From contig CAYNND010000005.1 in NCBI GenBank assembly GCA_964398775.1, positions 5,266 to 69,265 of the forward strand: a stretch of 64,000 nt of DNA. Reading direction: 5' to 3'. The notes below the pieces were generated by a model that was given only the letters and a program-made list of their open reading frames with translations, had not been told where the DNA came from and made no database searches. Positions within the stretch are counted from its first letter, which is position 1. The number at the start of each line of letters is the position of its first letter. The translations under genes and the position numbers were made by a program. This document shows, in pieces, positions 3,001-51,900 of the stretch. This DNA is from an uncultured Candidatus Saccharibacteria bacterium (GTDB lineage Bacteria > Patescibacteriota > Minisyncoccia > Phycocordibacterales > UBA2100).

Positions 3001-3014
3001 CGAACGAACGTTCT
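3001..3014. promoter_or_regulatory. Cheo-type LexA operator (CGAACGAACGTTCT), 14-27 bp upstream of lexA start
   Basis: Matches the Gram-positive SOS box consensus CGAACRNRYGTTYC (GAAC-N4-GTTC palindrome). Positioned in the lexA promoter region. Confidence 0.6.
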
Positions 3015-3062
3015 TTATACAAGATACTAAAAAAGGAAGTTGTGTATAAGTATGGAGGCCAC

Positions 3063-3377: not shown

Positions 3378-3404
3378 ATGTGACTATTGTAATATGTATA
3401 AACA

Positions 3405-5117: not shown

Positions 5118-5160
5118 GAGAGGAGCATATCATACTCGACTAGTTTCTGTGATGTGAAAA

Positions 5161-5691
5161 ATGTCGTATGATTTGCTTATGGACCCACACCAAGATGGAC
5201 CGAGAGTATCAACAATTATTTCGCTGCTAGCAGCGCTCATCATTTTTGGCGGACTATACATTATTATTCCGCGGTATCTTGAGCAGAAGCCGATTGTAGA
5301 GACGGAGCAGCTCGTTCATGTACAAGATGAGGCAAGCCCATTACCGACACGAGAACATGACCAGCAAGGTCTCGCACCTACACCAACGACAGACCGTTTC
5401 AGCGCATTGTTTGCAGCTGTGGAGCGAAGTATGCAGCTTGAGCATTGTCAAAATTTTGCTCAAGCTGACTATCTTGCAGCGTGGCTTTCAACATGCAGTA
5501 AAAAGTCTATGGTTTCAGATGCGTGCGCTGCAGAGCTCACAGCAATACAAAACTCAAGCCCAGTCGATATGCAGCGTCTGAGTCGTGCTATGAGTACTAC
5601 CTGCACATGCGCGCTAACACAATCTGAAGCCCGAGCTACAGAAGATATGCTCAAGCGCTCTCAGAATATCTGCCAGCAAAAATACAAATAG
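5161..5691 (+). CDS. Hypothetical membrane-anchored Cys-rich protein
   Basis: Single N-terminal TM (IISLLAALIIFGGLYIII), Cys-rich C-terminal region. Confidence 0.4.
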   Translation: MSYDLLMDPHQDGPRVSTIISLLAALIIFGGLYIIIPRYLEQKPIVETEQLVHVQDEASPLPTREHDQQGLAPTPTTDRFSALFAAVERSMQLEHCQNFAQADYLAAWLSTCSKKSMVSDACAAELTAIQNSSPVDMQRLSRAMSTTCTCALTQSEARATEDMLKRSQNICQQKYK

Positions 5692-9355: not shown

Positions 9356-9396
9356 GTTCGCGAGTGTATACCGATTAATATGCTTGAGCAACCAGG

Positions 9397-38724: not shown

Positions 38725-39756
38725 TTAGAGTGCGACGTACTTACCGTCGTTTGTTCTGTTGAAAATTTCAGTATCCTGCAGGTTTACCAAAATTGTACCG
38801 TCTTTTACATAGCGCTCTCGCTTTACTCGGTCAATGATTTCCTTCTTCGAAAGAGGTCCATCTTTTTTCAAGATATCCTTGATCACCTCTTTGACAACAC
38901 CTTTAGAGTATCCCCACTCAGAGAGAGCGTAGAGTCCGCGTCCAACCAATACAAAGCGCTCGTCTTTAATCAGTTCGTTGTGGCATGTTGCTTCATGAGC
39001 CTTTCTGCCAAAGAGTTCTGATATTGAACGTGCAACTTCAGCAAAGTGCATTGGAGAACCGTGCCGTTTCAGTGAAAGATATGCCATGTCACGCATGTTT
39101 TTTACGCGCACGCCTGGTGCGTCAACTCTCCCCCATTCTCCAAGTTGGTTTCTAGAAATTTTCTTTGAGAGAGAAAGCCAGCGTCGTGCCGTTTCGTGTG
39201 TGTGGTGCTTTTTATCGAGATGTGTCAGGTCTTTGAGAAAGCGCGCGATAAGTTCTTGTTCTGGAACAAGATCATCATTTGAAAGTGAGCGGTACAAGCC
39301 CCTTAGTGCTGCATGCACAGAATCTGCAATGCCTTGGTCCGCATGCCAGCGATGGTTAAATTCAGGATCCTCCTTAAGTCTTTCAAATTCATTTCCAACT
39401 ACAAGAAGGAAGTGTATATGGTTTTGGAGTCCTTCATTCTTCGAAATTGCGTCGAGAAGTTCCTGCTCAGGCACGATGCCACCCATGTCTATAATGATGC
39501 CTGTCAGCTCTGTAAACACAGAAGAAACCTCTTTGTATGCTGGCGACGTTCTAATCGCGCCTATTGCTCTATTCTCTATCTGTCGGACTCGTTCACGGGT
39601 GATAGTGTATCGTGAGCCAATCGTCTCAAGGGTGTCTCGTTTTACAGTATTCCCAAGCCCGTAGCGCCCCGTTAGAACATCACGCTCACGCGAAGGAAGC
39701 ACCCCAAGGAGCTTTTTTGTGATCTGTTTTGGCTTGAATGTTACTGAAAACTGCAT
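38725..39756 (-). CDS. DNA-binding protein combining a sigma-70 region-4-like HTH (N-terminal) with a HARE-HTH-like domain (C-terminal)
   Basis: N-terminal LPSRERDVLTGRYGLGNTVKRDTLETIGSRYTITRERVRQIENRAIGAIR is a textbook sigma-70 region 4.2. C-terminal MHFAEVARSI…ELIKDERFVLVGRGLYALSEWGY matches the RpoE-delta / HARE-HTH pattern. Confidence 0.55.
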   Translation of the reverse strand: MQFSVTFKPKQITKKLLGVLPSRERDVLTGRYGLGNTVKRDTLETIGSRYTITRERVRQIENRAIGAIRTSPAYKEVSSVFTELTGIIIDMGGIVPEQELLDAISKNEGLQNHIHFLLVVGNEFERLKEDPEFNHRWHADQGIADSVHAALRGLYRSLSNDDLVPEQELIARFLKDLTHLDKKHHTHETARRWLSLSKKISRNQLGEWGRVDAPGVRVKNMRDMAYLSLKRHGSPMHFAEVARSISELFGRKAHEATCHNELIKDERFVLVGRGLYALSEWGYSKGVVKEVIKDILKKDGPLSKKEIIDRVKRERYVKDGTILVNLQDTEIFNRTNDGKYVAL

Positions 39757-39873: not shown

Positions 39874-42800
39874 TTATATTACGATATTGACGATCTTTCC
39901 CGGTATGACAATAACGCGTTTTGGGGTCTTCCCTTCCAACCATCGTTCTACTTCTTTGAGTGAGCGTGTACGAACACTTTCCTCAGTGGCATTCGGTGTA
40001 ACTGATACGGTACCTCTCAGTTTGCCGTTGACTTGAATTGCAATTGTAACTTCCTCTGATACGAGTTTTTTCTCAGACCACCGTGGCCATTTTTCAAGAT
40101 GAACTGAGCGCTTGTGACCGCGCAAATGCCAAAGTTCTTCCGTAATATGTGGTGCAAATGGTGCAAGTAATGTTATCAAGGTGTCAAATTGGGCGCTTGT
40201 TAATCCAGACTTGTCAGCGACATTGAGGAAACTCATGAGTGATGCAATTGCGGTATTAAATTTAAGTTCAGTCACACCCTCAGTCACTTTCTTGATTGTT
40301 TTGTGCATCTCACGCTCCACATCAGAAGTAGTTGTTGATGTGATTTTTGTTTGAAGTTTCCAAACACGCTCGAGGAATCTTCGGATACCTACAATTGCCT
40401 CTGGTGACCACGGATAGCTTCCTGGCTCGTTAAATGGACCTATGAATGCAAGATACATTCGGACTGTGTCTGCACCGAGACGTTTAACGACATCATCTGG
40501 GTCGATGACGTTTCCTTTGCTCTTACTCATTTTTTGCCCATCTGGACCCAAAATCAACCCTCGGTTCATTCTGCGCGTATATGGCTCCTTTTCCTTTGTT
40601 AATTTTAAGTCATACAAGGCCTTATGCCAGAATCGACTATAGAGCACGTGCATTGTTGTGTGTTCTGCACCACCTGAGTACAAATCAACTGGCAACCACT
40701 GTTGCAATTTCTTTGAAGCTGCGAACTCCTTTTTGTTTTTTGGGTCTGAATAGCGGAGGTAGTACCATGAAGAGCAGATAAACGTGTCAAATGTATCAGT
40801 TTCTCTCGTTGCTGCTTTTTTACAGTTTGGACATGTTGTCTTCACCCATTTTGTTGCCTTTGCTAGCGGTGATTTACCATCCCCAGTTGGTAGGTAATCA
40901 GTGACTCGAGGCAATTCAACTGGAAGATTCTTCTCTGGGACAGGAATGTAGCCACATGTATTACAGTGAATCATTGGAATTGGCACACCCCAATATCGCT
41001 GCCGAGACACAAGCCAGTCGCGGAGTCGGTATGTTTTTTTTGCGCGACCATACCGCTTTGTAATTTCTATTTTTGCTGTAGCCGAATGAACACCATCATG
41101 TTCTCCTGAATTCATGAGATAGCCATCGCCAGTATGTATATGGTGTTCCCCATTAAACTCTCGCCAGAGGGTATCTTTCTCTTTAAGCGTGATGAAATTG
41201 AGAACCTCTGACGCCGGTTTCCAAATATGCTCATGCTTAGCGAGTTCATCCGCAGCGATATGACCTTGTTCGTCATTATCAAGTTCAAAATAGAGGTATG
41301 TGAATTCAACGCGTCGATTTGTTTTCTTGAAGTTATGGTAAAACTCAACAGTGGCCTTGTCTCCAATTTGTCTCACAAAGCGTGCATTTTTATAACCACT
41401 TTCTTCAAGTATTTCTCGTTTTCCAGCAGTAACAGCATCCTCACCCTCTTCAATTCCTCCGGAGACAAATCCACGAATCGGGTGGCCTTTCCATGTCTGA
41501 CATAGATACTCATCTTTTTCCCAATGTTTTACAATGCACATAACTGCACTGCGACTTACGAACGGTTCATTTGGGTGGACTGCATCTGCACCTGATGTTT
41601 GTGTAACAAGGCGTGTCACTACTTGCCGTATCGGGAGTCCATGCGCGCGGGCAAACTCGTTGTCCCGCTCATCGTGTGCAGGTACCGCCATGATTGCTCC
41701 TGTACCGTACTGTGCGAGCACATAGTCACCTATAAACACAGGGATTTCCTCTCGAGTCGCTGGATTAATTGCGCGGATCCCCTTTAGTTGAACACCTGTC
41801 TTATCTTTATTCTCTTGCCGTTCAAGTTCTGTTTTTTGCTTAGTCTGGGCTCTGTATGCCTGCACTTCTGCTTCATTGTGTATAAGTCCTGAGTGTTGCA
41901 GTGCAGCTGTTACCCACTGGTGTTCAGGTGCCAGAACCATGTACGTAGCACCATGGAGAGTATCTGGCCGAGTTGTGAAGACTCTAATTGTTGGCGCAAT
42001 TGCCATAACCATATCTGGTTCACCCGCTTCTGAAGAAAAATGCGGTACTACACCAGTGCCTTTAATTAAGTGAGCACCGAGTGCCAACGCCCAAGCGTGT
42101 GCATCTTCTTGTGGGACAATGGTATCTGCCTCATCAGTGAGAACGACAAAGCCCTTTGAGTTCTGTTTTATTTTCTGTATATCGAACGGATGCTTACACG
42201 CTTTCGTAACAGAACGGCGCAACTTCTTATCAAGAAATACACCAGAATGTGGTGTTGCAATCAAAGAAACTCTGCCAACTTTTGAGCCGAGTTCGAGCGC
42301 TCTGAGTGCAACAAGTCCTCCAAATGATACTCCGACCAGTGCAGTTTTCTCGTTGAGGTTGCAATGTTTTTGTACATACGCAGCCTGCGTATCCAAATCA
42401 GGCTCTTGTGAATTTGGGAGCTCCGGTACGTCAACTGTGTATCCTCGCGCCTCTAATTGCTGTTTGAGCCACGGAAATGCATGACTCTTTGGTGAGCCAT
42501 TCCTTCCATGCAAAATAACAATTCGTGAACATGAGTCAACGCCTTTCAAAGGAAAATCGATTTCAGCACCTTCACTTCTCCCAATCCAATTTCGCTGAGA
42601 ATCCTTAATTGCCTCAGGCCATTGTAGTGGCTCGAGATCGTCAACGAGGCGATCGGCATACTTCGTAATTGCAATGTTCCATTGAGGCATGAGTCTCTGC
42701 TCCACTTTACTATTGCATCGCTCACACTCACCGCTCACCACTTGTTCATTCGCGAGCACTGTCTTACATGAGGGACACCAATTTGCTGCTGTGTCTTTTC

Positions 42801-43251
42801 GGTAGACCAAACCCTTCTTATGTAATTGTAAGAATAGCCACTGCGTCCACTTGTAGTATGCTGGGTCGCAGGTCACCACTTCTCGAGTCCAATCGAAAGA
42901 TGCACCCATTGAGGCAATCTGCTTCCTCATGTGCGCCATATTTTTGTAGGTCCATGTTCGTGGATTAATACCACGTTTGATTGCGGCGTTTTCAGCTGGA
43001 AGCCCAAATGCGTCAAAGCCAATCGGGTATAGAACATTACTTCCCTGCATGCGTCGTGCTCGTGCATACATGTCTGGCACTGCAAATGCGTACCAGTGGC
43101 CGACATGCAAATTACCAGATGGGTATGGAAACTCTACAAGTACATACTCATTTTTTTTCCCTTTTTCAGTATCCTTTACAGTGTAGAGGGCCTTCTTTTG
43201 CCATTCCTTTTGCCACTTCTTCTCTATTCGTAAATGATTGTAGTCCTTCAT
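39874..43251 (-). CDS. leuS: Leucyl-tRNA synthetase with two inserted hydrolase domains (YdeN-like alpha/beta hydrolase; Nudix), 1125 aa
   Basis: HIGH (NLHVGHW), KMSKS and the editing-domain landmarks TTRPDT and AHDERD are all present. There is a 180-aa insert with GVSFGG (GxSxG) between IGRSEG…DFPL and TTRPDT. There is a 140-aa insert with a perfect Nudix box GGIEEGEDAVTAGKREILEESGY between GLPIRQVV and YRLRDWLVSRQRYWG. Confidence 0.9.
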   Translation of the reverse strand: MKDYNHLRIEKKWQKEWQKKALYTVKDTEKGKKNEYVLVEFPYPSGNLHVGHWYAFAVPDMYARARRMQGSNVLYPIGFDAFGLPAENAAIKRGINPRTWTYKNMAHMRKQIASMGASFDWTREVVTCDPAYYKWTQWLFLQLHKKGLVYRKDTAANWCPSCKTVLANEQVVSGECERCNSKVEQRLMPQWNIAITKYADRLVDDLEPLQWPEAIKDSQRNWIGRSEGAEIDFPLKGVDSCSRIVILHGRNGSPKSHAFPWLKQQLEARGYTVDVPELPNSQEPDLDTQAAYVQKHCNLNEKTALVGVSFGGLVALRALELGSKVGRVSLIATPHSGVFLDKKLRRSVTKACKHPFDIQKIKQNSKGFVVLTDEADTIVPQEDAHAWALALGAHLIKGTGVVPHFSSEAGEPDMVMAIAPTIRVFTTRPDTLHGATYMVLAPEHQWVTAALQHSGLIHNEAEVQAYRAQTKQKTELERQENKDKTGVQLKGIRAINPATREEIPVFIGDYVLAQYGTGAIMAVPAHDERDNEFARAHGLPIRQVVTRLVTQTSGADAVHPNEPFVSRSAVMCIVKHWEKDEYLCQTWKGHPIRGFVSGGIEEGEDAVTAGKREILEESGYKNARFVRQIGDKATVEFYHNFKKTNRRVEFTYLYFELDNDEQGHIAADELAKHEHIWKPASEVLNFITLKEKDTLWREFNGEHHIHTGDGYLMNSGEHDGVHSATAKIEITKRYGRAKKTYRLRDWLVSRQRYWGVPIPMIHCNTCGYIPVPEKNLPVELPRVTDYLPTGDGKSPLAKATKWVKTTCPNCKKAATRETDTFDTFICSSWYYLRYSDPKNKKEFAASKKLQQWLPVDLYSGGAEHTTMHVLYSRFWHKALYDLKLTKEKEPYTRRMNRGLILGPDGQKMSKSKGNVIDPDDVVKRLGADTVRMYLAFIGPFNEPGSYPWSPEAIVGIRRFLERVWKLQTKITSTTTSDVEREMHKTIKKVTEGVTELKFNTAIASLMSFLNVADKSGLTSAQFDTLITLLAPFAPHITEELWHLRGHKRSVHLEKWPRWSEKKLVSEEVTIAIQVNGKLRGTVSVTPNATEESVRTRSLKEVERWLEGKTPKRVIVIPGKIVNIVI

Positions 43252-43296: not shown

Positions 43297-44340
43297 TTAT
43301 GTTTTTTTTGAGTAGTGTGTCCACTGGACGAGGTTCCAGAGTATGCGCATACCAACGTTTGCATTCCATTCAGAATCATTTGCTTGTGGCGAAACTTCAT
43401 TAACATCAAAACCAATTATCTTTTTACCTGATTTCGCGACTGCTCGAATGAGAAATACCGCTTGGTCGAATGAAAGGCCTCCAGGGACTGGTGTACCTGT
43501 GCCTGGGCACAGTGATGCCTCAAGTCCATCAATGTCAAAACTTATATATACTTTTTCTGGAAGTTGTTGAACTATTTTGGCAACTGACATCTCCCATGTA
43601 GAACCGCAAAATGACTCAGCTTTCAAATCAGTATCAAAAAAAGTACTAATACGGTTACTGTTCTGTACGATATATTCTCGCTCTCCTGGTGAGTAATCAC
43701 GAATACCGACCTGAACTAATTTCTTAACAGAAGATACATGTGCAAGAACGTTCCACATTATTGATGCATGTGAGTACGTAAAACCCTCATATGCTTCTCG
43801 TAAGTCGCAGTGTGCGTCAATTTGCAAAATGCCAAATTCAGAGTGCACATCGCCGAGTGCTCGGATAAGCCCATATGGAGTACTGTGGTCGCCACCTATC
43901 AACCCTACTAATTTGCCTTGTGCAATGTGATATGCGGACTCTTCATGAATTTCATCATGGAATACTTCACACGCTATATTGATTTCGGCCAGAGCTTTTG
44001 CGTTCCCTTTTCTGCCAGATGATATGTCCTGTATATATCGCTCTGCCTTAGATCTTAATTGCTGACCACGCTTCAAGACATTGTGTTTTTCTTGCAGCGG
44101 AGTCATGTATACACCTACTTTCCAAGAATCACCACCATGCGCCTCATGATAATAGTCAATTTGGGGTGATGCAGCGTAAATCGCCTCAGGTCCTTTTTGT
44201 GTGCCACCACCATAAGAAACAGTAACACCCCACGGAGCAGGTATAAGTACTATGCTTGCATCAGATTCTGCGGTTGAAAGACCGAAAATACCAGAGTTTG
44301 TTTGCGCGACGGCGTTTGGGTCAAATGGTTTTGAGTTCAT
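43297..44340 (-). CDS. speB: Ureohydrolase of the arginase/agmatinase family (probable agmatinase)
   Basis: GGDHS, DAHCD and SFDIDGLE…PGTGTP metal-binding motifs. The context includes arginine decarboxylase and carboxyspermidine genes. Confidence 0.75.
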   Translation of the reverse strand: MNSKPFDPNAVAQTNSGIFGLSTAESDASIVLIPAPWGVTVSYGGGTQKGPEAIYAASPQIDYYHEAHGGDSWKVGVYMTPLQEKHNVLKRGQQLRSKAERYIQDISSGRKGNAKALAEINIACEVFHDEIHEESAYHIAQGKLVGLIGGDHSTPYGLIRALGDVHSEFGILQIDAHCDLREAYEGFTYSHASIMWNVLAHVSSVKKLVQVGIRDYSPGEREYIVQNSNRISTFFDTDLKAESFCGSTWEMSVAKIVQQLPEKVYISFDIDGLEASLCPGTGTPVPGGLSFDQAVFLIRAVAKSGKKIIGFDVNEVSPQANDSEWNANVGMRILWNLVQWTHYSKKT

Positions 44341-44349
44341 GTGTATATC

Positions 44350-45576
44350 TTACCCCATTCGTGACTTAAAATCTTCATATGTAAACTCTCTGAGTGTTTC
44401 AAGTTCTCCATTTTCATGAAGAAATACAATTGATGGATGTTTAACGCCATTAAACATAGTAATCTTTATGAGTGTGTATTGAATTGCGTGCTCAAATACA
44501 ACTGCATCACCTACTTTTAGTGGTTTATCAAATGAATAGAGTGCATGCGTCATATCACCTGCAATGCAGGTGCTACCACCAAATCTATATACATGCTGCT
44601 GCGTAGCGTTATTGTCGTCAGTATCAATTCGCTTTGCATTTCGCACCTCTAGCTGAAGATCTTTACTTACAAAAAAGTCTGTAAGATGATTTTCAAATGA
44701 CATATTTAGAATCGGTATTTTATATGGGACATCATCTCGCTCAACAATATCCAAAACGCGAGCGACAAGTGTACCGACATGCCATGCTATTGCTGCGCCT
44801 GGCTCAAGATGAATCTCTACATTATATTTTGCAGCAAATGTGTTGAGTATGTGTATGAGTTTTTTCCTATCGTATGAATCATCAGTTATTTTTTGTCCAC
44901 CGCCAAAATTAACCCACTCCATGGCGCTACAATACTCACCAAAGTTCGATTCAATTTTACTAAGTGCTTGCTCAAGGTCTTGCGCATCCTTTTCAAAGAA
45001 GAGATGGAAATGTAGACCGCTTATACCCTCGAGTGCCTTTGCATCTTCAGTCAACGCTCGCTTAAATTCAGAAATGCGGATCCCAAGTCGTGAGCCCGGC
45101 GCGCAGGGATTCCAAAGCTCGCCGTGACCATCTGCGTCAAGAATTTCCGGGTTAATTCTCAAACCAAAACTTCTTAATTTACCGGTTGTTCGTGCGTAAG
45201 TAAGAGCTTGGTCTTTAAACTGTTTCCATTGAGAGAATGAGTTGAAGATGATAGTACTGCAGTAATTTAAAATTTCTGAAAATTCCTGTGTGTTATATGC
45301 GGGCGCAAACATATGAACGTTCTCGCCAAAATGCTCGTAGGCAAGTCGCGCTTCGTGCAGTGAACTTACCTCTGCGCCTTGAAGATACTCTCGTTCAATC
45401 GGGAAAAGCTGCCAGGGACTCCATGCCTTCAAGGCGTGCAGTATGGTTGCTCCGGTAGCATCATGAATTTCTTTCAATACTGAAAGATTATGACGGAGAA
45501 TATGTTCTTCTATTACAAAGGCAGGTGTATCTACTTGTGATGCGATGAGTCGTGATGGTGGTCTTCGTAGTTCCAT
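44350..45576 (-). CDS. nspC: Carboxynorspermidine/carboxyspermidine decarboxylase
   Basis: About 400 aa. The C-terminal block …ITMFNGVKHPSIVFLHENGELETLREFTYEDF is characteristic of CANSDC. Alanine-racemase-fold N-domain. Confidence 0.75.
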   Translation of the reverse strand: MELRRPPSRLIASQVDTPAFVIEEHILRHNLSVLKEIHDATGATILHALKAWSPWQLFPIEREYLQGAEVSSLHEARLAYEHFGENVHMFAPAYNTQEFSEILNYCSTIIFNSFSQWKQFKDQALTYARTTGKLRSFGLRINPEILDADGHGELWNPCAPGSRLGIRISEFKRALTEDAKALEGISGLHFHLFFEKDAQDLEQALSKIESNFGEYCSAMEWVNFGGGQKITDDSYDRKKLIHILNTFAAKYNVEIHLEPGAAIAWHVGTLVARVLDIVERDDVPYKIPILNMSFENHLTDFFVSKDLQLEVRNAKRIDTDDNNATQQHVYRFGGSTCIAGDMTHALYSFDKPLKVGDAVVFEHAIQYTLIKITMFNGVKHPSIVFLHENGELETLREFTYEDFKSRMG

Positions 45577-45578
45577 GG

Positions 45579-46829
45579 CTATATTTTCTCGGGCAATGGT
45601 TTAAAATCAACAACTTCAAATGGCAAACCATTCTTCGATACAATTTCAAGAAAAGGCTCTGGATCAAGCTGCTCCATGTTATATACTCCAGCGCCACTCC
45701 ATACCCCTGTCATGAGCATGTATGCCGCAGACATTGCGGGGACACCCGTTGTATACGAAATTGCTTGTGAGCCAACTTCCTTAAAGCATGCTGCATGGTC
45801 GCAGACATTGTATATGTACTTTGTCGCTACTGTGCCGTCCTTTTCACCAGTAATAATGCATCCAATATTTGTCTTCCCGCTGTAGTTCGTTGCGAGTGAC
45901 GCTGGGTCAGGGAGCAGTGCTTTCAAAAATTCCATTGGAACAATCTTAACAATCTTCCCATTGAGTTTGAATGGTATCGGCTTAATACCTGAAATGCCAA
46001 TACTCTCCATTACCCTGAGATGGTTGAGATAATTTTCCCCAAAAGTCATCCAGAAACGCATGCGTTTCAGGCCAGGCAAGTTTTTTGCAAGCGACTCCAT
46101 TTCTTCATGGAAGAGCAGATAGCTTTCTTTGGGTCCGATTTGTGGATAGTTAAAAGCAAAATGAATGCTGCCAGTGTTCATGACTGGAGGTGTATACACC
46201 CAAGTCCCATCCCTGAAATGCTTCACTTCCTGTGTGACCTCACGAATATTAATTTCTGGATTGAAATTTGTAGCAAATGATTTGTCATGACTTCCAGCGT
46301 TTGCATCAAGAATGTCTACGGACTCAATTGTTGTGAAATACTTCTTGAGTGCGTACGCGCAATACATATTTGTAACTCCTGGATCGAAACCTGCGCCCAA
46401 AACAGCCATAAGACCAGCTTTTTTAAACTGAGTATGTTTTGCCCACTGGAGTTTGTACTCAAATTTTGCCTCGTCTTTCGGCTCATAGTTTGCTGTGTCA
46501 ATGTAATGGACTTTTGTTTTCAGGCATGCATCCATTATGGTCAGGTCTTGATATGGAAGTGCCAAGTTCAACACAAGGTACGGCTTTACTTTTTTTATGA
46601 GCGCGACCAGTTGCGGCACCTTGTCAGCATCAACTTGGTGTGTAGTTATTGCAACATCCCATCGTTTTTTAACATCTTTTTTTATTGCATCAGCCTTTGC
46701 TTTTGTTCGCGTTGCAACATGAATTTTTGTAAAAACTTTAGAATTCATTGCGCATTTGTGAATCGCAACTGATGCAACACCTCCTGCGCCAATTATAAGA
46801 ATTGTCCCATTATTTTTCTGAGTTTTCAT
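45579..46829 (-). CDS. Carboxynorspermidine/carboxyspermidine dehydrogenase (saccharopine dehydrogenase-like)
   Basis: N-terminal ILIIGAGGVASVAIHK Rossmann motif. 416-aa length and saccharopine-DH-like C-domain. Adjacent to the CANSDC gene. Confidence 0.7.
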   Translation of the reverse strand: MKTQKNNGTILIIGAGGVASVAIHKCAMNSKVFTKIHVATRTKAKADAIKKDVKKRWDVAITTHQVDADKVPQLVALIKKVKPYLVLNLALPYQDLTIMDACLKTKVHYIDTANYEPKDEAKFEYKLQWAKHTQFKKAGLMAVLGAGFDPGVTNMYCAYALKKYFTTIESVDILDANAGSHDKSFATNFNPEINIREVTQEVKHFRDGTWVYTPPVMNTGSIHFAFNYPQIGPKESYLLFHEEMESLAKNLPGLKRMRFWMTFGENYLNHLRVMESIGISGIKPIPFKLNGKIVKIVPMEFLKALLPDPASLATNYSGKTNIGCIITGEKDGTVATKYIYNVCDHAACFKEVGSQAISYTTGVPAMSAAYMLMTGVWSGAGVYNMEQLDPEPFLEIVSKNGLPFEVVDFKPLPEKI

Positions 46830-46849
46830 ATGAATAGTATATACGATAA

Positions 46850-47932
46850 TTATAAATATTTTTTGGCATGCAAAAGTTCTGCGATAAGAACTCCACCACC
46901 CGCTGCACCTCTAATCGTGTTATGCGAGAGCCCAACAAATTTCCACTGGAATAAAGGGTCTTCTCTGAGCCTACCTACGGTCACTGCCATTGCTTTATCT
47001 GAGTCTCTATCAAGTCTTGTCTGCGGCCTATTTTCTTCACTTTTATAATGAATAGCCTGCCGCGGAGCAAGTGGAAGTTGTAATCGTTGTGGTTCACCGG
47101 TAAACGATTCCCATGCTTTTAGTATCTCATCGCGACTTGGCTTCTGTTCGCATTCAAACGAAACGCACGCCATATGACCGTCAATGGTCGGAACACGGTT
47201 GCAGTGCGCTGAAATTGCAAATGAGTCGTCATAGATAAATGACGTGTCACCAATTGTTCCAAAGATTTTTCTTGGCTCTAGTTCAGACTTCTGTTCCTCG
47301 CCTCCAATATAAGGGATAACATTATCCAGAATGTCATATGAAGAGACGCCCGGATGCCCTGCCCCAGAAATTGATTGCATTGTAGTGACAAATACTTTTC
47401 GTACTTTGAATGTTTTGTGAAGCGCTGCAAGCGGTGCGGTATAGCTTTGAATTGAGCAGTTTGGCTTAACGACAATAAATCCTTTTGCCCACCCTCTGTT
47501 CTTTTGCTGTATTGGGATCATTTCAAGATGCTCAGGATTAACCTCAGGTATAATCATTGGAACATCCGACGTATGCCTGTGCGTTGAAGCATTTGAAACC
47601 ACTGGAATACCTGCTGCTGCATATTGCTCTTCCCACTCCTTCGCTATTGGTGTATCCAGCGCTGAAAATACAAAATCACATGATGCAGCGCAGGTCTGTA
47701 GATCGTCAACTGTGTGCACCTGTAACCCAGAGATACTCTCAGGGATATGTGCCTGCATGTGCCAGCGACCCTGTACAGCTTCCGCATACGTTTTCCCAGC
47801 TGAAGACTGACTTGCTACAAGATATGTAACCTCAAACCATTCATGGTTAGTAAGGAGCGCTATATACTGCTGCCCCACCATCCCAGTCGCACCAAGAATA
47901 CCAACTCGAAGTTTTTTGTTCATACTATGCAA
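46850..47932 (-). CDS. asd: Aspartate-semialdehyde dehydrogenase
   Basis: LRVGILGATGMVGQQ N-terminal motif; active-site Cys region (…SNCSI…-like NCSIQS). Confidence 0.85.
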   Translation of the reverse strand: MHSMNKKLRVGILGATGMVGQQYIALLTNHEWFEVTYLVASQSSAGKTYAEAVQGRWHMQAHIPESISGLQVHTVDDLQTCAASCDFVFSALDTPIAKEWEEQYAAAGIPVVSNASTHRHTSDVPMIIPEVNPEHLEMIPIQQKNRGWAKGFIVVKPNCSIQSYTAPLAALHKTFKVRKVFVTTMQSISGAGHPGVSSYDILDNVIPYIGGEEQKSELEPRKIFGTIGDTSFIYDDSFAISAHCNRVPTIDGHMACVSFECEQKPSRDEILKAWESFTGEPQRLQLPLAPRQAIHYKSEENRPQTRLDRDSDKAMAVTVGRLREDPLFQWKFVGLSHNTIRGAAGGGVLIAELLHAKKYL

Positions 47933-49235
47933 TTAAAGTTTTATGTAATGCAATCACCGATGACTGTGCGGCATCCTCCTTCACAATAAACGTTATACTG
48001 ACACCTGTCGCAGATTCTGAAATCATGCGTACTGGGACATTCATTTTTTCGAAAGTAGTGCAAGCAGTTTTCATGACGCTGGATACGTGCATACCTGCCC
48101 CTACAATGCATATAACCGCACAATTGTGGGTTACTTCAACTGCACCGATTGACCTGAGCGACTCTACAAGCGCTGAGGTATGAGCAGATGATGCATAACT
48201 GCATGATACACTCACTACAGAAGTTGCGATTACATCAACAGCAACCTCATGCTCTTCAAAGCATCTGAACATGCGTGCCATGAGGCCTGTACCGTCAAAG
48301 AAATCCGGACTATGCACGGTGACCACGGTTGTACCTTTCTTTGAGGTTATCGCCTTTGCCATTTTAGTATGGTTTTTCGGAGTTTGAGCTTGTATCAAAG
48401 TTCCTGTTCCTTGAGGTTTGAATGTGTTCAATACTCGCACTGGCACACCTTTTTCCATTGCTGGGAGCATTGTTTTTGGATGAAGTACTTTTGCACCAAA
48501 GTAGGCTAGTTCACCGGCTTCTTCATATTGCAATGCTGGTATAAGTCGAGCAGATGGAACAACACGAGGGTCAGTTGAGAGGACTCCGTCAACTTCTTTC
48601 CATATCTGGATCTCAGCGGCAGAGATTGAGCCACCGATAATTGCCGTAGTGTAATCAGAACCACCACGTCCAAGGGTAGTGACTGAACCTTTTTTTGTTT
48701 TCCCAATAAAACCTGTTACAACAGGTACTTTTGTGTATGCTTGGAAAAAAGACTTGATTGCTGCAGGTGTTTCTGAAAGTGGCTCAGAGTTTCCGTGCAC
48801 ATTTGTTGTAAGCATGCCGATATCCCATGCGTCATACGCTATTGAATCAACACCTCTTTTTTGAAGAAGTGCAGCCACAATCCGAGCCGATAATCTCTCA
48901 CCGAATGATACAAAGCGATCTCGAACCGCAAGCGATTGAGTTACATTTTTTGATGATAGTTTTTTCAGCTCATTCAGTAAAGGCTCGACACCATCGCAAG
49001 ACAGTTCGAGTTGTTCGATAATGTTCGCATGCCTCTGTGCCAATAAAGACACCTTATGAAGGCGTGCAGTGACTGAACGTTCATGGTATATCTCCAAAAG
49101 TGCATCTGTTACACCTGCAACCGCAGAAACAACCACAATTGGTTGCTGAGCAATTCGCGCTTTAATTATTTTAACAACGCTCTGGATACTTTCAGCAGTA
49201 CCAACAGATGTGCCGCCAAACTTCATTACTATCAT
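47925..49235 (-). CDS. lysC: Aspartate kinase
   Basis: MIVMKFGGTSVGTAESI amino-acid-kinase N-terminus; C-terminal tandem ACT domains. The ORF is open to 49265 (GTG); the first ATG is at 49235. Confidence 0.85.
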   Translation of the reverse strand: MIVMKFGGTSVGTAESIQSVVKIIKARIAQQPIVVVSAVAGVTDALLEIYHERSVTARLHKVSLLAQRHANIIEQLELSCDGVEPLLNELKKLSSKNVTQSLAVRDRFVSFGERLSARIVAALLQKRGVDSIAYDAWDIGMLTTNVHGNSEPLSETPAAIKSFFQAYTKVPVVTGFIGKTKKGSVTTLGRGGSDYTTAIIGGSISAAEIQIWKEVDGVLSTDPRVVPSARLIPALQYEEAGELAYFGAKVLHPKTMLPAMEKGVPVRVLNTFKPQGTGTLIQAQTPKNHTKMAKAITSKKGTTVVTVHSPDFFDGTGLMARMFRCFEEHEVAVDVIATSVVSVSCSYASSAHTSALVESLRSIGAVEVTHNCAVICIVGAGMHVSSVMKTACTTFEKMNVPVRMISESATGVSITFIVKEDAAQSSVIALHKTLIA

Positions 49236-49413
49236 AGAATCAACAATTACCCTGTAATGACTCACTGATGTCAGTGAGTTGTTGTGGAGCTATGCTCCGT
49301 CTTTCTATGCAGCGCTTCTGACGACACGAAGAAACTTCAGTCGGAATGATCGTGCTCTATAAACTCTAGCATGTAATTCACGGATTACAATCCTTGTGTG
49401 ATACACTTTCACC

Positions 49414-50436
49414 ATGAAGACAGCACGTATCGCGATTATTGGAAAAGGAAACATAGGAAATACTCTTGCAGAGCGTGCACAAGCACTGGGGCATCAGATT
49501 TCAGCGCATATAAGTCGCTCAGAATTTAAAAATCATCGCGGAGATACTGTCGCACACACTTTCGATAATTTCGCAACGTTTATAGAGCACTACCCTGAAG
49601 AGCGTCCTGAGATTGTTTGTTTGGCTATACCAACTCTGGATACTGGTGAGATTGCTGCTCAGCTAATCACAGATGCTCTATCACTTGGAATCCATGTTGT
49701 TACGTGCGAAAAAGGCTCACTTTCATATCATGCAGATGAGCTTTTAACTGCAGCATCACCTGCACAACTTCGTTATTCAGCATCAGTAGGAGGAGGTACG
49801 ATGATGCTTCCGTATATGTATATGAGAAATATGCAGGAGCGGGTTATTCAAATGGATGCAGTAATAAACGGAACATGCAATTTTATTTTCCATCAAACTG
49901 CACAAAGTGGACGCACTCTAGGAGAAGCATGTGATGAAGCTGCTCGGCTTGGATATGCAGAACCTGGGAGCAAAGAACCTTTAAGTCTTATAAATGGAGA
50001 ATTGAAAGATGTTCGCATGAAGACATGCGTACTCTTTAATACGGTATTGGCTCAGAAATTGCGCATTACGCCGCGCGACCTCGGTTCTCTATCCCTCAAC
50101 GAAGCAACACTAGATGAACTCAGTAGGTATTCGGGTAGTGTGCGGCTTGTTGTGCAATTTACAAACACAGAAAACGCCAAAATAGCTGAGTATAGTGGTT
50201 GCCAGTTTGTCACTTCAGTTGACGGATGGACAATCCAAGGAGGGTTTCGTAACCTTCAAAAGGAGCCTGAGCTGCTCCAGTGGCTTCCAGGAGGTGTCGG
50301 AAACGCAATCCACATCACAGAGGGTAAGCTAGGAAGTGGCGGAAGGTACACACTGACAGGACCGGGTGCAGGGGCTGAGGCGACTACATCAGCTATGCTC
50401 AACGACATTCATGAAATACTAACAACTCGATACTAA
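49414..50436 (+). CDS. hom: Homoserine dehydrogenase-like oxidoreductase
   Basis: N-terminal IAIIGKGNIGNTL NAD-binding motif; central …VINGTCNFIF…LGYAEPGSKEP… block resembling the homoserine DH catalytic domain. Confidence 0.6.
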   Translation: MKTARIAIIGKGNIGNTLAERAQALGHQISAHISRSEFKNHRGDTVAHTFDNFATFIEHYPEERPEIVCLAIPTLDTGEIAAQLITDALSLGIHVVTCEKGSLSYHADELLTAASPAQLRYSASVGGGTMMLPYMYMRNMQERVIQMDAVINGTCNFIFHQTAQSGRTLGEACDEAARLGYAEPGSKEPLSLINGELKDVRMKTCVLFNTVLAQKLRITPRDLGSLSLNEATLDELSRYSGSVRLVVQFTNTENAKIAEYSGCQFVTSVDGWTIQGGFRNLQKEPELLQWLPGGVGNAIHITEGKLGSGGRYTLTGPGAGAEATTSAMLNDIHEILTTRY

Positions 50437-50502
50437 AATCCTTTACATTCTGTGAAAATGCGTTAGAGTACAAATCACTAATTCATAACAATATCTAAAG
50501 AG

Positions 50503-51900
50503 ATGAAACGCGCACGTGCATCAGCACACAAACATGCGAAGAATGGTTTCAGAAAGATGTGGAAACTCGGCATAGAAGAGGTTAACACAGGGATGTTTGA
50601 TATAAGTGATGATGGTTCACTTGTTGTTCGAGAGGGAAACTTCCAATACAACATCCATGACATAGTAAAGAAGTACGGCACTTCAACCGAAATCCTCTTC
50701 CCTACGATCATTGAAAATCGAGTTCGAGACATGATTGAGACATTCAATGCCTACATTAAAGTGCTCGGATACAAAGGCAAATACCACTATCATTACCCAA
50801 TGAAGGTGAATCAGAACAAGGAATTCGTTCTTCCTGCAGTTGCTGAAGGCGCAAACCTTGAAGTTGCCTCTGCAAACGAATTATTTTTAGTGAAGCGAAT
50901 GATTGAACAGAACAAATTTACGAACAGTATTCGTGTGCTCTGCAATGGACCGAAAACAGAACGTTATATTGAACTTATCGAAGAGTTGAAATCTAAAGGA
51001 CTTGTTGTTATACCTATTATCGAAGACCATAGTGAGCTTGAGCGAATGAGGCGTTTCAAAGGTGAGGTTGGCATACGTGTTGACTTAAACATTAAAGTCG
51101 ACAGTCATTGGGATAAACGATTTAACCGATTTGGCTTTACTGAAGAAGAGCTTGTTTCTCTAGGTACAATACGAAACCTCTCAATACTTCACTACCATAT
51201 TTCAAGCCAGATTGAGCATATAGATGGCCTTATACGTCCGATGCAGCGAGCAATTGAACTGTACGCAAAGATGCGCCTAAAAAACCCTGGTCTCGACTCA
51301 CTTGATATTGGCGGTGGTGCTGGTATTCCATACAATAAGAACAAGCAACTCTATAACACCAAAAATCTAATACAACGAATTGTTAAGACGGCAAAGGCTA
51401 CTTGCGATAAATTGAATGTAAAACATCCGACACTCATCTCAGAATGGGGACGATATGCTGTTGCACCTGCACAAATAACTATATACAAAGTTATCGCTGA
51501 GAAAGAGATTGCACAGAAGGATAAGCATAAATGGTATGTGGTTGATGGGAGTTTTATGAATGATCTTACAGACACATGGGCATTGCACCAAAAGTGGCAT
51601 GTTGTACCAGTAAACAGTATGAAACACCACAAACTCCAGCATACATGGCTTGCTGGGAGCTCGTGTGACAGTGATGATAAATACACTGCGGGCGGCACAT
51701 CTATACCACTACCTAAAATAAGCGATACTGATAATGGACTCTATATAGCCATCCTCGACACAGGTGCGTATCAAGACTCGCTTGCGTCACATCACTGCAT
51801 GCTCTCGTCACCTCTTAAGCTTCTTGCAAGTAATGGTGAAATTAAGGTTATACGCAAACGCGAAGCTCCTGAAGATGTGGGGAGACAATTTGGATGGTAG
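50503..51900 (+). CDS. speA: Fold-III PLP-dependent decarboxylase, probable biosynthetic arginine decarboxylase (compact SpeA-like)
   Basis: PLP-lysine block YPMKVNQNKEFV; HYHISSQI matches the SpeA HFHLGSQ motif; DIGGGAGIPY glycine-rich loop. Confidence 0.65.
   Translation: MKRARASAHKHAKNGFRKMWKLGIEEVNTGMFDISDDGSLVVREGNFQYNIHDIVKKYGTSTEILFPTIIENRVRDMIETFNAYIKVLGYKGKYHYHYPMKVNQNKEFVLPAVAEGANLEVASANELFLVKRMIEQNKFTNSIRVLCNGPKTERYIELIEELKSKGLVVIPIIEDHSELERMRRFKGEVGIRVDLNIKVDSHWDKRFNRFGFTEEELVSLGTIRNLSILHYHISSQIEHIDGLIRPMQRAIELYAKMRLKNPGLDSLDIGGGAGIPYNKNKQLYNTKNLIQRIVKTAKATCDKLNVKHPTLISEWGRYAVAPAQITIYKVIAEKEIAQKDKHKWYVVDGSFMNDLTDTWALHQKWHVVPVNSMKHHKLQHTWLAGSSCDSDDKYTAGGTSIPLPKISDTDNGLYIAILDTGAYQDSLASHHCMLSSPLKLLASNGEIKVIRKREAPEDVGRQFGW

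What the first reader, a model, noticed from the sequence alone, without database searches (positions are those of the whole stretch)
42004..42543. YdeN/RBBP9-like alpha/beta serine-hydrolase domain inserted just before the LeuRS editing domain
A 180-aa segment sits between IGRSEGAEIDFPL and TTRPDT (RIVILHGRNGSPKSHAFPWLK…GVSFGGLVALRALELG…VVLTDEADTIVP…GVVPHF). It has the order and spacing of the Ser-Asp-His triad of YdeN-type serine hydrolases: GxSxG nucleophile elbow, a DxIVP aspartate and a C-terminal GxxxHF histidine. Its position immediately N-terminal to the CP1 editing module is where an auxiliary deacylase would be expected to act on the tRNA 3' end.
Basis: partly seen in the sequence, partly recalled or inferred. 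Interest (0 to 1): 0.8.

Follow-up and report, generated by a model that had tools for sequence, protein, structure and literature searches.

The report
Serine hydrolase domain nested in LeuRS
A complete, apparently active RBBP9/YdeN-type serine hydrolase domain sits inside a surface hairpin of the leucyl-tRNA synthetase of a Parcubacteria (CPR) bacterium, next to a second nested Nudix hydrolase; because the same hydrolase module is also nested elsewhere in LeuRS and in unrelated housekeeping proteins, it is probably not a dedicated extra tRNA-editing site.

Summary
On the minus strand, one 1125-aa bacterial-type LeuRS (39874-43251) carries a 183-aa insert (aa 239-421). The insert replaces 3 residues at the tip of the first CP1 beta-hairpin of T. 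thermophilus LeuRS. It matches Pfam Ser_hydrolase PF06821 (E 1e-10) and YdeN 1uxo (E 1e-11). It folds with pLDDT 96.6, and its best structural matches are YdeN and RBBP9 (E 1e-14 to 1e-13). Ser309, Asp376 and His404 align with the RBBP9 triad and are kept in 118, 106 (+14 Glu) and 120 of 121 aligned sequences. A second nested domain, a Nudix hydrolase with an intact Nudix box (aa 548-708), lies just after CP1. CP1's own editing residues are intact.

The "auxiliary deacylase placed for the tRNA 3' end" reading is only partly supported. The same module occurs at a second LeuRS site (the ZN2 knuckle). It also occurs in ValRS, IleRS, UvrB, EngA and SecA, and as a stand-alone gene. HAD, histidine-phosphatase and IS200-like modules are nested in related synthetases.

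The most likely reading is an autonomous alpha-aminoacyl/ester hydrolase carried on LeuRS. A role in aminoacyl-ester clean-up is chemically plausible but untested. I found no paper describing this architecture.

The parts
39874..43251 (-). leuS: complete bacterial-type leucyl-tRNA synthetase, 1125 aa, carrying two nested domains
   Evidence: ORF. NCBIfam TIGR00396 leuS_bact scores 937.9 bits against a cut-off of 548.4. Pfam finds tRNA-synt_1, tRNA-synt_1_2 and Anticodon_1. HVGH is at aa 49-52 and KMSKS at aa 907-911. The best PDB match is T. thermophilus LeuRS 1h3n, E 1.9e-215.
42538..43251 (-). LeuRS N-terminal catalytic part plus the first strand of the CP1 hairpin (aa 1-238), ending in IGRSEGAEIDFPLKGV
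   Evidence: Aligns to Tth LeuRS residues 1-239. The full-length model has a strand at E226-236.
41989..42537 (-). Insert 1: nested RBBP9/YdeN-type serine hydrolase domain with short linkers (aa 239-421); the Pfam match covers aa 244-410 = window 42022-42522
   Evidence: The insert replaces Tth residues 240-242. pN is 0.147 against pS 0.72 versus the closest orthologue.
42505..42510 (-). His248-Gly249, the HG oxyanion-hole motif after the first strand of the hydrolase
   Evidence: H248 is present in 119 of 121 aligned sequences and is invariant in alignment A2. It lies directly after strand E243-247.
42325..42327 (-). Ser309, predicted nucleophile within G307-V-S-F-G311 (nucleophile elbow between a strand and a helix)
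   Evidence: Ser in 118 of 121. It aligns with RBBP9 Ser75 and with the YdeN nucleophile. It lies between strand E303-308 and helix H310-320.
42124..42126 (-). Asp376, predicted triad acid (DTIVP); the neighbouring Asp373 (window 42133-42135) is also nearly invariant
   Evidence: Asp in 106 and Glu in 14 of 121. It aligns with RBBP9 Asp138 and with the second Asp of the YdeN 'KDD' motif. It lies in the loop after strand E368-373. D373 is at least 90% conserved.
42040..42042 (-). His404 (followed by Phe405), predicted triad base
   Evidence: His in 120 of 121 and Phe in 115 of 121. It is invariant in A2 and A3. It lies in the loop after strand E394-398.
41611..41988 (-). CP1 editing domain core (aa 422-547) with an intact editing site: T426, T427, R428, T431 and H526, D527, R529, D530
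   Evidence: Pfam PF13603. Aligns to Tth residues 243-364, so T426/T427/T431 correspond to Tth T247/T248/T252 and D527/D530 to Tth D344/D347. These residues are invariant or nearly invariant in 115 sequences.
41128..41610 (-). Insert 2: nested NUDIX hydrolase domain (aa 548-708); the Nudix box G598-x5-E604-x7-R612-E613-I-x-E616-E617-x-G619-Y is at window 41392-41460
   Evidence: Pfam PF00293, aa 569-683, E 2.6e-10. The insert replaces Tth residues 365-379. G598, G599, E613, E616, E617 and G619 are at least 90% conserved. The closest solved sequences are DIPP1/NUDT3, E about 5e-4. There are weak RppH matches in NCBIfam.
39874..41127 (-). LeuRS C-terminal catalytic half (ZN2 knuckle, KMSKS), anticodon-binding domain and C-terminal domain (aa 709-1125, plus the stop codon)
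   Evidence: Aligns to Tth residues 380-580 and 637-876. The leucine-specific domain (Tth about 581-636) is absent.

Best explanation
The window encodes the leucyl-tRNA synthetase of a Parcubacteria/Patescibacteria (CPR) bacterium. A complete 170-aa RBBP9/YdeN-family alpha/beta serine hydrolase is nested at the tip of the first beta-hairpin of the CP1 editing domain. A Nudix hydrolase is nested at the other edge of CP1.

Shown here: the fold; the family membership; an intact HG oxyanion motif; the Ser309-Asp376(/Asp373)-His404 triad; purifying selection; conservation of this architecture across more than 100 diverged orthologues; and an otherwise complete LeuRS with an intact CP1 editing site.

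Inferred: the domain is a working hydrolase that uses the classical acyl-enzyme mechanism. Ser309 attacks an ester or amide carbonyl, H248-G249 and the elbow backbone stabilise the oxyanion, and His404/Asp376 activate water to release the acyl group. By analogy with RBBP9, its preferred acyl group is a free-amine hydrophobic amino acid or a small ester.

Also inferred: it acts as an autonomous module that uses LeuRS as a carrier. The carrier would provide constitutive expression and possibly proximity to amino-acid/adenylate chemistry. It is probably not a third editing site whose action depends on where it sits relative to the tRNA CCA end. It appears to be one instance of a recurrent habit in these small-genome bacteria of nesting small hydrolase modules (YdeN-type, Nudix, HAD, histidine phosphatase) in surface loops of large housekeeping proteins.
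For: Identity and competence of the domain:
- Pfam PF06821 scores above its gathering cut-off.
- YdeN 1uxo matches at E 1e-11 and RBBP9 at about 4e-4 by sequence.
- The AF2 model has pLDDT 96.6, and its top Foldseek hits are YdeN and RBBP9.
- The triad and HG motif are conserved in 118-120 of 121 sequences.
- pN is 0.147 against a saturated pS of 0.72 for the closest pair. That is comparable to the anticodon-binding/C-terminal region (0.168).
- In the full-length model (pLDDT 90.4, pTM 0.78) the 10-residue blocks containing the two short linkers average pLDDT 92-94.

Autonomy of the module:
- The same domain is found at a second LeuRS site and in ValRS, IleRS, UvrB, EngA and SecA.
- One 218-kb contig carries it in UvrB and also twice in tandem in LeuRS.
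- These copies are only 30-56% identical to one another and to stand-alone genes, which points to old, independent captures.
- The same residues are conserved in LeuRS-hosted, otherwise-hosted and stand-alone copies.
- HAD_2, His_Phos_1 and Y1_Tnp modules are nested in related synthetases.
- CP1 editing residues are invariant whether or not the insert is present.

Chemistry: RBBP9 is an aminopeptidase that forms acyl-enzymes with Leu/Ile, Phe, Tyr and Trp and needs a free alpha-amine (PMC8866121).
Against: - The hosts are heavily enriched for class Ia synthetases of branched-chain amino acids (LeuRS at two sites, ValRS, IleRS). The module usually travels with a Nudix domain. Both facts suggest a functional tie to aminoacylation chemistry rather than pure hitch-hiking. 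The search was seeded with a LeuRS-derived copy, however, which biases the census.
- The best stand-alone relative lies 4 nt downstream of fusA and is followed by a Nudix gene and then tuf. This again hints at a link to translation.
- No activity, substrate or 3D geometry was measured.
- Stand-alone YdeN proteins have no known physiological substrate, so 'autonomous hydrolase' leaves the substrate open.
Confidence: 0.5

Rival explanations
1. Auxiliary proofreading site. The nested hydrolase deacylates mischarged aminoacyl-tRNALeu, or hydrolyses released non-cognate aminoacyl-adenylate or aminoacyl esters that CP1 does not clear. The neighbouring Nudix domain removes adenylated by-products such as ApnA.
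For: [quoted passage not shown]
- A cited paper title reports RBBP9 as a valacyclovir-activating enzyme. That valacyclovir is an amino-acid ester of a nucleoside analogue is my own knowledge.
- The module recurs in LeuRS at two sites and in ValRS and IleRS.
- It flanks CP1 together with a Nudix domain whose nearest solved relatives are DIPP-type enzymes. That DIPP enzymes also hydrolyse diadenosine polyphosphates is my own knowledge.
- The linkers are short and confidently modelled, which implies a fixed pose.
- A stand-alone copy sits between fusA and tuf.
Against: - The same module is nested in UvrB, EngA and SecA, which do not handle aminoacyl esters.
- The two LeuRS insertion sites lie on different parts of the enzyme, so there is no conserved geometry.
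- No residues are conserved specifically in LeuRS-hosted copies.
- The CP1 editing site is fully intact.
- By inference from strand lengths only, the hairpin tip is roughly 20-30 A from the threonine-rich pocket.
Confidence: 0.25
2. Substrate-supply module. The domain is an aminopeptidase that releases N-terminal Leu or other hydrophobic residues from scavenged peptides next to the synthetase. This would help an auxotrophic episymbiont charge tRNALeu.
For: - RBBP9 is an aminopeptidase, and Leu/Ile adducts were trapped on it.
- The hosts include LeuRS, IleRS and ValRS.
- CPR bacteria are generally amino-acid auxotrophs (my own knowledge, not tested here).
Against: - RBBP9 prefers aromatic residues.
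- The module also occurs in UvrB, EngA and SecA.
- Free amino acid diffuses, so fusion gives little channelling benefit.
- This window itself encodes aspartokinase, aspartate-semialdehyde dehydrogenase and homoserine dehydrogenase, so the organism is not devoid of amino-acid metabolism.
Confidence: 0.1
3. Non-catalytic passenger. The domain is a structural, regulatory or binding module, or a tolerated selfish in-frame insertion (intein-like or transposon-derived) with no enzymatic role.
For: - The insertions are in surface loops of essential genes, as with inteins.
- An IS200-like Y1 transposase domain is nested at the same LeuRS site in P0224.
- In this lineage the usual His of GHSxG is replaced by Val (GVSFGG).
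Against: - The triad, HG motif and elbow are conserved across orthologues that share only about 42% identity in the insert.
- pN is well below pS.
- Pfam reports no intein or Hint-type family for the protein, and I see no terminal Cys/Ser...His-Asn junction at the insert borders when reading the sequence.
- No meaningful DNA repeats flank the insert.
- Copies within one genome are only 30-35% identical, so there has been no recent mobility.
Confidence: 0.07

Closest known systems
RBBP9 / YdeN family serine hydrolases (Pfam PF06821; PDB 1uxo, 2qs9, 7oex, 9fcr)
   Same: The same minimal lid-less alpha/beta-hydrolase fold of about 180 aa. The HG motif, GxSxG elbow, Asp and His-Phe are at homologous positions. 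These are the best sequence and structure matches.
   Different: Here the domain is not a free protein. It is nested inside another enzyme through two short linkers. The residue before the nucleophile is Val in this lineage rather than His. The physiological substrate is unknown both for this domain and for bacterial YdeN.
LeuRS CP1 editing domain (Pfam PF13603) and canonical bacterial LeuRS (T. thermophilus 1h3n, E. coli 4aq7/4arc)
   Same: The host protein is a standard bacterial LeuRS. CP1 is inserted in the Rossmann fold, and the threonine-rich and GTG...HD..D editing motifs are intact.
   Different: It carries two extra catalytic domains, one at each edge of CP1 (183 aa replacing 3 aa, and 161 aa replacing 15 aa). 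It lacks the leucine-specific domain. The nested hydrolase has a different fold from CP1 and uses covalent serine catalysis. That CP1 acts without an enzyme nucleophile is my own knowledge.
Free-standing and appended aminoacyl-tRNA editing factors (YbaK/ProX/INS, AlaX, D-Tyr-tRNA deacylase)
   Same: If the rival explanation is right, the job would be the same: hydrolysis of an aminoacyl ester on A76.
   Different: There is no homology. None of those factors is an alpha/beta serine hydrolase (my own knowledge), and the top structural matches here are YdeN, RBBP9 and esterases. This module is not restricted to tRNA-handling hosts.
Synthetases with extra enzyme domains, e.g. NCBIfam NF040702 'isoleucine--tRNA ligase, N-acetyltransferase domain-containing'
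   Same: This is a precedent for a class Ia synthetase carrying an additional unrelated catalytic domain. The model appears in the NCBIfam hit list.
   Different: It involves a different added domain (GNAT) and a different host. The window protein scores only 81 bits against that model, whose cut-off is 1999, so it is not a member.
Inteins
   Same: They are large in-frame insertions in essential housekeeping proteins.
   Different: Pfam reports no intein or Hint-type family, and I see no splice-junction residues in the sequence. The insert lies in a variable hairpin tip rather than a conserved active-site motif, and its own hydrolase triad is under selection.

Membership tests
RBBP9/YdeN serine hydrolase family (PF06821) | Sequence match to the family profile above the curated threshold | tested here: met
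   PF06821 covers aa 244-410 over profile positions 1-159 of 172, at 42.1 bits against a cut-off of 22, E 1.1e-10. YdeN 1uxo matches at E 1.1e-11.
RBBP9/YdeN serine hydrolase family (PF06821) | Minimal alpha/beta-hydrolase fold of about 180 aa, superposable on YdeN and RBBP9 | tested here: met
   The AF2 model has pLDDT 96.6 and pTM 0.92. Foldseek gives 1uxo at 1.3e-14 and RBBP9 at about 1e-13, with TM 0.71-0.83 and rmsd 2.5-3.8 A over about 180 columns.
RBBP9/YdeN serine hydrolase family (PF06821) | Ser-Asp-His triad at the homologous positions, with a GxSxG elbow | tested here: met
   S309 aligns with RBBP9 S75 and the YdeN nucleophile, D376 with RBBP9 D138, and H404-F405 with the family's His-Phe. 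Conservation is 118/121 for Ser, 106 Asp + 14 Glu of 121, and 120/121 for His. Triad distances could not be measured because no coordinates were available.
RBBP9/YdeN serine hydrolase family (PF06821) | Hydrolase activity dependent on the serine | not testable with these tools
   This needs fluorophosphonate labelling and esterase or aminopeptidase assays of wild type against S309A.
Bacterial leucyl-tRNA synthetase (TIGR00396) | Equivalog-level profile match, HIGH and KMSKS motifs, CP1 editing domain, anticodon-binding domain | tested here: met
   TIGR00396 scores 937.9 bits against a cut-off of 548.4. HVGH is at 49-52 and KMSKS at 907-911. PF13603 and PF08264 are present. The CP1 residues are invariant.
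Cis-acting aaRS editing domain (functional class) | Exclusive association with tRNA-charging hosts | tested here: not met
   The same module is nested in UvrB (P0234), EngA (P0202) and SecA (P0146), and it is common as a stand-alone gene.
Cis-acting aaRS editing domain (functional class) | Conserved insertion point giving a fixed geometry relative to the synthetic site and the CCA end | tested here: not met
   There are two LeuRS sites: the CP1 hairpin tip (this window) and a site after PIPMIH762 in the ZN2 knuckle (P0159, P0182, P0212, P0224, P0246). Tandem double copies also occur.
Cis-acting aaRS editing domain (functional class) | Active site within reach of the tRNA 3' end; deacylation of mischarged tRNA | not testable with these tools
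Intein | Hint fold with Cys/Ser/Thr at the N-terminal junction and His-Asn followed by Cys/Ser/Thr at the C-terminal junction | tested here: not met
   Pfam reports no intein or Hint-type family. Reading the sequence, the junctions are ...FPLKGVDSCSRIV... and ...AIAPTIRVFTT..., with no His-Asn. The whole insert is accounted for by the alpha/beta-hydrolase model.
NUDIX hydrolase (PF00293), second insert | Profile match plus Nudix box GX5EX7REUXEEXGU | tested here: met
   PF00293 scores 40.9 bits against a cut-off of 21.1. The box G598...E604...R612 E613...E616 E617.G619 Y620 is read directly from the sequence. Its core residues are at least 90% conserved.

The most novel reading that the evidence does not exclude
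The nested serine hydrolase and Nudix domains may be two additional clean-up active sites functionally coupled to class Ia synthetase chemistry. The hydrolase would act as a covalent-catalysis aminoacyl-ester or aminoacyl-adenylate hydrolase, working in cis or locally in trans. The Nudix domain would act as an ApnA or adenylated by-product hydrolase. That would give CPR LeuRS four catalytic centres. It would also provide the first example of an alpha/beta-hydrolase used for translational quality control.
Probability: 0.2. Interest if true: 0.85.

Novelty: new variant of a known kind. Interest (0 to 1): 0.6.

Why it matters
LeuRS is one of the best-studied proofreading enzymes. A large clade of uncultured bacteria turns out to carry two extra, selectively maintained hydrolase active sites around its editing domain. 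As far as the searchable literature shows, nobody has described or assayed this. If the hydrolase acts on aminoacyl esters or adenylates, it would be a new class of translational quality-control activity. If it does not, the recurrent nesting of small clean-up hydrolases inside essential proteins (LeuRS, IleRS, ValRS, UvrB, EngA, SecA) is itself an unexplained feature of genome organisation in minimal-genome CPR bacteria. It would also supply natural, evolution-tested domain-insertion sites for protein engineering. In practice, these proteins are currently auto-annotated inconsistently, as 'alpha/beta fold hydrolase', 'NUDIX domain-containing protein' or 'class I tRNA ligase family protein'.

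Tried and rejected
- Plus-strand reading of the given coordinates: rejected, because it is full of stops.
- Intein or selfish element: rejected. Pfam reports no intein or Hint-type family, I see no junction residues in the sequence, and only short chance repeats flank the insert. The copies in one genome are only 30-35% identical.
- Naturally split LeuRS beginning at the hydrolase (many database entries start there): rejected. In L008 the full frame 2119-5691 is uninterrupted and includes the N-terminal catalytic part, so these entries are mis-called starts or fragments.
- Rosetta-stone test: the insert-less LeuRS P0120 has no YdeN-like gene within 10 kb on either side, so the test was uninformative.
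- Gene neighbourhoods of stand-alone copies: one lies between fusA and tuf, next to a Nudix gene of a different subfamily. Two others are in unrelated contexts. There is no consistent signal.
- dN/dS: synonymous sites are saturated even for the 86%-identical pair, so only pN and pS are reported.
- Domain-only word-index search: it returned nothing. The profile version returned only short stand-alone proteins. These are limits of the method, not evidence of absence.
- The afdb50 fold library was unavailable.
- Other nested domains in this window: none were found in the ten largest other ORFs, and there is no second YdeN-like copy in the six-frame translation.
The six aimed at this architecture found no description of a LeuRS with YdeN or Nudix inserts. 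The other two concerned RBBP9 chemistry.
Full report
**1. Checking the observation**

The coordinates 42004-42543 translate to nonsense on the plus strand. They lie inside the only long ORF of the region, 39874..43251 on the minus strand, which is 1125 aa. In that protein:
- IGRSEGAEIDFPL is aa 223-235 and TTRPDT is aa 426-431.
- GVSFGG is aa 307-312, DTIVP is aa 376-380 and GVVPHF is aa 400-405.

Pfam finds the LeuRS families (tRNA-synt_1, the LeuRS editing domain PF13603 at aa 421-549, and Anticodon_1). It also finds PF06821 Ser_hydrolase at aa 244-410, with E 1.1e-10 and 42.1 bits against a gathering score of 22. In addition, it finds a NUDIX domain at aa 569-683, with E 2.6e-10. The whole protein passes the NCBIfam leuS_bact equivalog model at 937.9 bits against a cut-off of 548.4.

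**2. Where exactly the insert sits**

phmmer against solved structures aligns the protein to T. thermophilus LeuRS (1h3n) in four blocks:
- query 1-238 = Tth 1-239
- query 422-547 = Tth 243-364
- query 709-903 = Tth 380-580
- query 907-1125 = Tth 637-876

From this mapping:
- The hydrolase insert (aa 239-421, 183 aa) replaces three residues at the turn of the hairpin PVEGK-EVR-IPVFTTRPDT.
- The Nudix insert (aa 548-708) replaces 15 residues after the last CP1 helix.
- The leucine-specific domain of Tth LeuRS (about 581-636) is missing.
- T426, T427 and T431 correspond to Tth T247, T248 and T252. D527 and D530 correspond to Tth D344 and D347. All of these are invariant or nearly so in 115 related sequences, so the canonical editing site is intact.

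**3. What the insert is**
- By sequence, the closest solved protein is B. subtilis YdeN (1uxo, E 1.1e-11), followed by human RBBP9 (E about 4e-4).
- An AlphaFold2 model built from 34 insert sequences has mean pLDDT 96.6 and pTM 0.92, with alternating strands and helices.
- Foldseek against the PDB ranks 1uxo first (1.3e-14) and then six RBBP9 chains (about 1e-13; TM 0.71-0.83). Ordinary esterases follow about six orders of magnitude behind.
- The motifs sit where an alpha/beta hydrolase needs them:
  - H248-G249 lies after the first strand.
  - S309 lies between a strand and a helix.
  - D376 lies in the loop after strand 368-373.
  - H404 lies in the loop after strand 394-398.
- In the phmmer alignments, S309 pairs with RBBP9 Ser75 and D376 with RBBP9 Asp138. 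Ser75 is the catalytic serine used in the RBBP9 trapping work. The YdeN nucleophile is listed as S71.

**4. Conservation**

A search with the full-length protein returned 120 close relatives. They come from Kaiserbacteria, Parcubacteria, Paceibacterota and Minisyncoccia metagenome-assembled genomes. Nearly all are 1122-1150 aa long and carry the same Pfam set.

Across 121 aligned sequences:

| Residue | Conservation |
|---|---|
| S309 | Ser in 118 |
| D376 | Asp in 106, Glu in 14 |
| H404 | His in 120 |
| H248 | His in 119 |
| G311 | Gly in 119 |

- 119 of the 121 have an insert of about 190 aa at this site, and 114 have the Nudix insert.
- A few relatives lack one of the two inserts: P0101 and P0120 have no hydrolase, while P0082, P0097 and P0113 have no Nudix.
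- Mean identity to the query is 42% in the hydrolase. It is 73% in the N-terminal catalytic part, 61% in CP1 and 45% in the anticodon-binding/C-terminal part.
- Against the closest orthologue (86% identical), synonymous sites are saturated (pS about 0.72). pN is 0.147 in the hydrolase, 0.04-0.09 in the core and 0.168 in the C-terminal region.
- The insert is therefore under purifying selection, and the catalytic residues are the most constrained part of it.

**5. The finding that changes the interpretation**

An exhaustive HMMER search of 1.84 billion representative proteins with the insert found 1176 relatives at E of 0.001 or better. I classified the best 150 by domain order and with Pfam.

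- Besides about 40 LeuRS proteins with the module at the same site, several have it at a second site, after CP1 and inside the C-terminal catalytic half (P0159, P0246, P0182, P0212, P0224, P0134).
- This second site maps to just after PIPMIH762, in the ZN2 zinc knuckle.
- The Nudix domain also moves. It is found before the hydrolase (P0139, P0162), inside CP1 (P0212) or after CP1.
- Other LeuRS proteins carry HAD_2 (P0094, P0147) or an IS200-like Y1 transposase domain (P0224).
- The same YdeN-type module is nested in ValRS (P0195) and in IleRS together with a histidine-phosphatase domain (P0216).
- It is also nested in proteins unrelated to tRNA: UvrB (P0234), the GTPase EngA/Der (P0202) and SecA (P0146).
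- On one 218-kb contig, UvrB carries the module. On the same contig a 1338-aa LeuRS carries two tandem copies at the CP1 hairpin plus a Nudix domain.
- These copies are only 30-56% identical to each other and to stand-alone genes. In an unsupported neighbour-joining tree the nested copies mix with stand-alone ones. This suggests several old, independent captures rather than recent mobility.
- Position by position, the residues conserved in LeuRS-hosted copies are the same ones conserved in copies from other hosts and in stand-alone proteins. I found no LeuRS-specific signature.

**6. Mechanism**

What is shown: a complete, selectively maintained RBBP9/YdeN-type catalytic apparatus is embedded in a complete LeuRS. 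The 10-residue blocks containing the two short linkers average pLDDT 92-94 in a full-length model with pLDDT 90.4 and pTM 0.78.

What is inferred:
- Catalysis follows the classical covalent scheme: Ser309 as nucleophile, His404/Asp376 as the relay, and H248-G249 plus the elbow backbone as the oxyanion hole.
- For substrate class, the only characterised relative is RBBP9. It is an aminopeptidase that needs a free alpha-amine. It was trapped as acyl-enzyme with Leu/Ile, Phe, Tyr and Trp. [quoted passage not shown]
- A paper title cited in PMC7730578 reports RBBP9 as a valacyclovir-activating enzyme. Valacyclovir is an L-valyl ester of a nucleoside analogue (my own knowledge).

Against a dedicated cis-editing role:
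- The host range includes UvrB, EngA and SecA.
- LeuRS has two different insertion sites, and tandem copies occur.
- There are no host-specific conserved residues.
- The CP1 site is fully intact.

I therefore rank the explanations as follows:

| Explanation | Probability |
|---|---|
| Autonomous aminoacyl/ester hydrolase carried by LeuRS | about 0.5 |
| Proofreading or clean-up coupled to the synthetase | about 0.25 |
| Peptide-derived leucine supply | about 0.1 |
| Inert or selfish passenger | about 0.07 |

The enrichment in LeuRS, IleRS and ValRS, the usual pairing with a Nudix domain, and a stand-alone copy lying between fusA and tuf keep the second reading alive. The Nudix gene next to that stand-alone copy belongs to a different subfamily. 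Two other stand-alone copies lie in unrelated contexts.

**7. What could not be done**
I could not measure the distance or orientation of the Ser309 pocket relative to the CP1 pocket or the CCA path.
- From strand lengths alone, the hairpin tip should be roughly 20-30 A from the threonine-rich loop. This is inference only.
- The census of hosts is biased, because the search was seeded with a LeuRS-derived copy and only the best 150 hits are listed.

**8. Comparison with what is known, and novelty**
- The domain is a member of the RBBP9/YdeN family, and every testable defining feature is met.
- The host is a member of the bacterial LeuRS family.
- The combination was not found in the literature searches aimed at it: a serine hydrolase and a Nudix hydrolase nested at the two edges of CP1, conserved across a large Parcubacteria clade.
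- A 2026 survey of domain insertions discusses CP1 only as an inserted module and does not mention such nested hydrolases.
- The sequences are public but inconsistently auto-annotated.
- NCBIfam does curate one comparable oddity, an IleRS with a GNAT domain.
- I classify this as a new variant of a known kind, of moderate to high interest. The specific 'auxiliary deacylase' mechanism is unproven and somewhat weakened by the host range.

Noticed in passing
window 41128-41610 (-), aa 548-708 of LeuRS: A second nested catalytic domain lies just after CP1. It is a NUDIX hydrolase with a perfect Nudix box (G598x5E604x7R612E613IxE616E617xG619Y). It is conserved in 114 of 121 relatives. Its nearest solved sequences are DIPP1/NUDT3 (E about 5e-4), and it has weak RppH matches.
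   Followed up: partly
window 40519-40545 region (-), around aa 903-907: This LeuRS lacks the leucine-specific domain. Tth residues about 581-636 have no counterpart, and query 903 joins 907 directly before KMSKS.
   Followed up: no
window 42328-42330 (-), Val308: In this lineage the residue before the nucleophile is Val (GVSFGG). In 85-96% of other family members, nested or free, it is His (GHSxG).
   Followed up: no
L001 6001-8538 and 12033-14538: One 218-kb metagenomic contig encodes a UvrB with the YdeN-type module nested between UvrB_inter and Helicase_C. It also encodes a 1338-aa LeuRS with two tandem YdeN-type modules plus NUDIX at the CP1 hairpin. The three copies are only about 30-35% identical to one another.
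   Followed up: partly
proteins P0224, P0094, P0147, P0216, P0202, P0146, P0195: Other nested modules occur in related housekeeping proteins. An IS200-like Y1 transposase domain is nested in LeuRS (P0224). HAD_2 is nested in LeuRS (P0094, P0147). His_Phos_1 plus Ser_hydrolase are nested in IleRS (P0216). Ser_hydrolase is nested in EngA between its two GTPase domains (P0202), in SecA (P0146) and in ValRS (P0195).
   Followed up: partly
L010 4511-6070: The best stand-alone relative of the hydrolase starts 4 nt after the stop of fusA (EF-G). It overlaps a downstream Nudix gene of a different subfamily. A 255-aa ORF, tuf, rpsJ and rplC follow. EF-G on this contig is broken by frameshifts, probably from assembly errors.
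   Followed up: partly
L003 3819-4825: In the genome whose LeuRS lacks the hydrolase insert, a Ham1-like ITPase gene and a small NUDIX gene sit inside the ATP synthase operon, between the gamma and beta subunit genes. This is another case of clean-up hydrolases embedded in an essential locus.
   Followed up: no
window 43297-51900: A cluster of metabolic genes lies directly upstream of leuS. It encodes an arginase/agmatinase-family protein, an Orn/DAP/Arg-decarboxylase-like protein, a saccharopine-dehydrogenase-like protein, aspartate-semialdehyde dehydrogenase, aspartokinase, homoserine dehydrogenase and an Orn/Arg decarboxylase. The set resembles the carboxy(nor)spermidine polyamine route (my reading). 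It is syntenic in the related genome GCA_964528735.1.
   Followed up: no
window 38725-39756 (-): The gene immediately downstream of leuS encodes a 343-aa protein with Sigma70 region 4 at its N-terminus and a HARE-HTH domain. This is an unusual stand-alone region-4 protein, and it is conserved in synteny in L007.
   Followed up: no
window 1-64000: ARAGORN found no tRNA or tmRNA gene in the 64 kb. The other two synthetases in the window, GluRS-type (7922-9391) and Asp/Asn/LysRS-type (17080-18426), have ordinary architectures without nested domains.
   Followed up: yes
L008 2119-5691: Many database LeuRS entries that appear to begin with the hydrolase domain are mis-called starts. In L008 the open frame continues upstream through the whole N-terminal catalytic part, and a stand-alone NUDIX gene lies just upstream of leuS.
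   Followed up: yes
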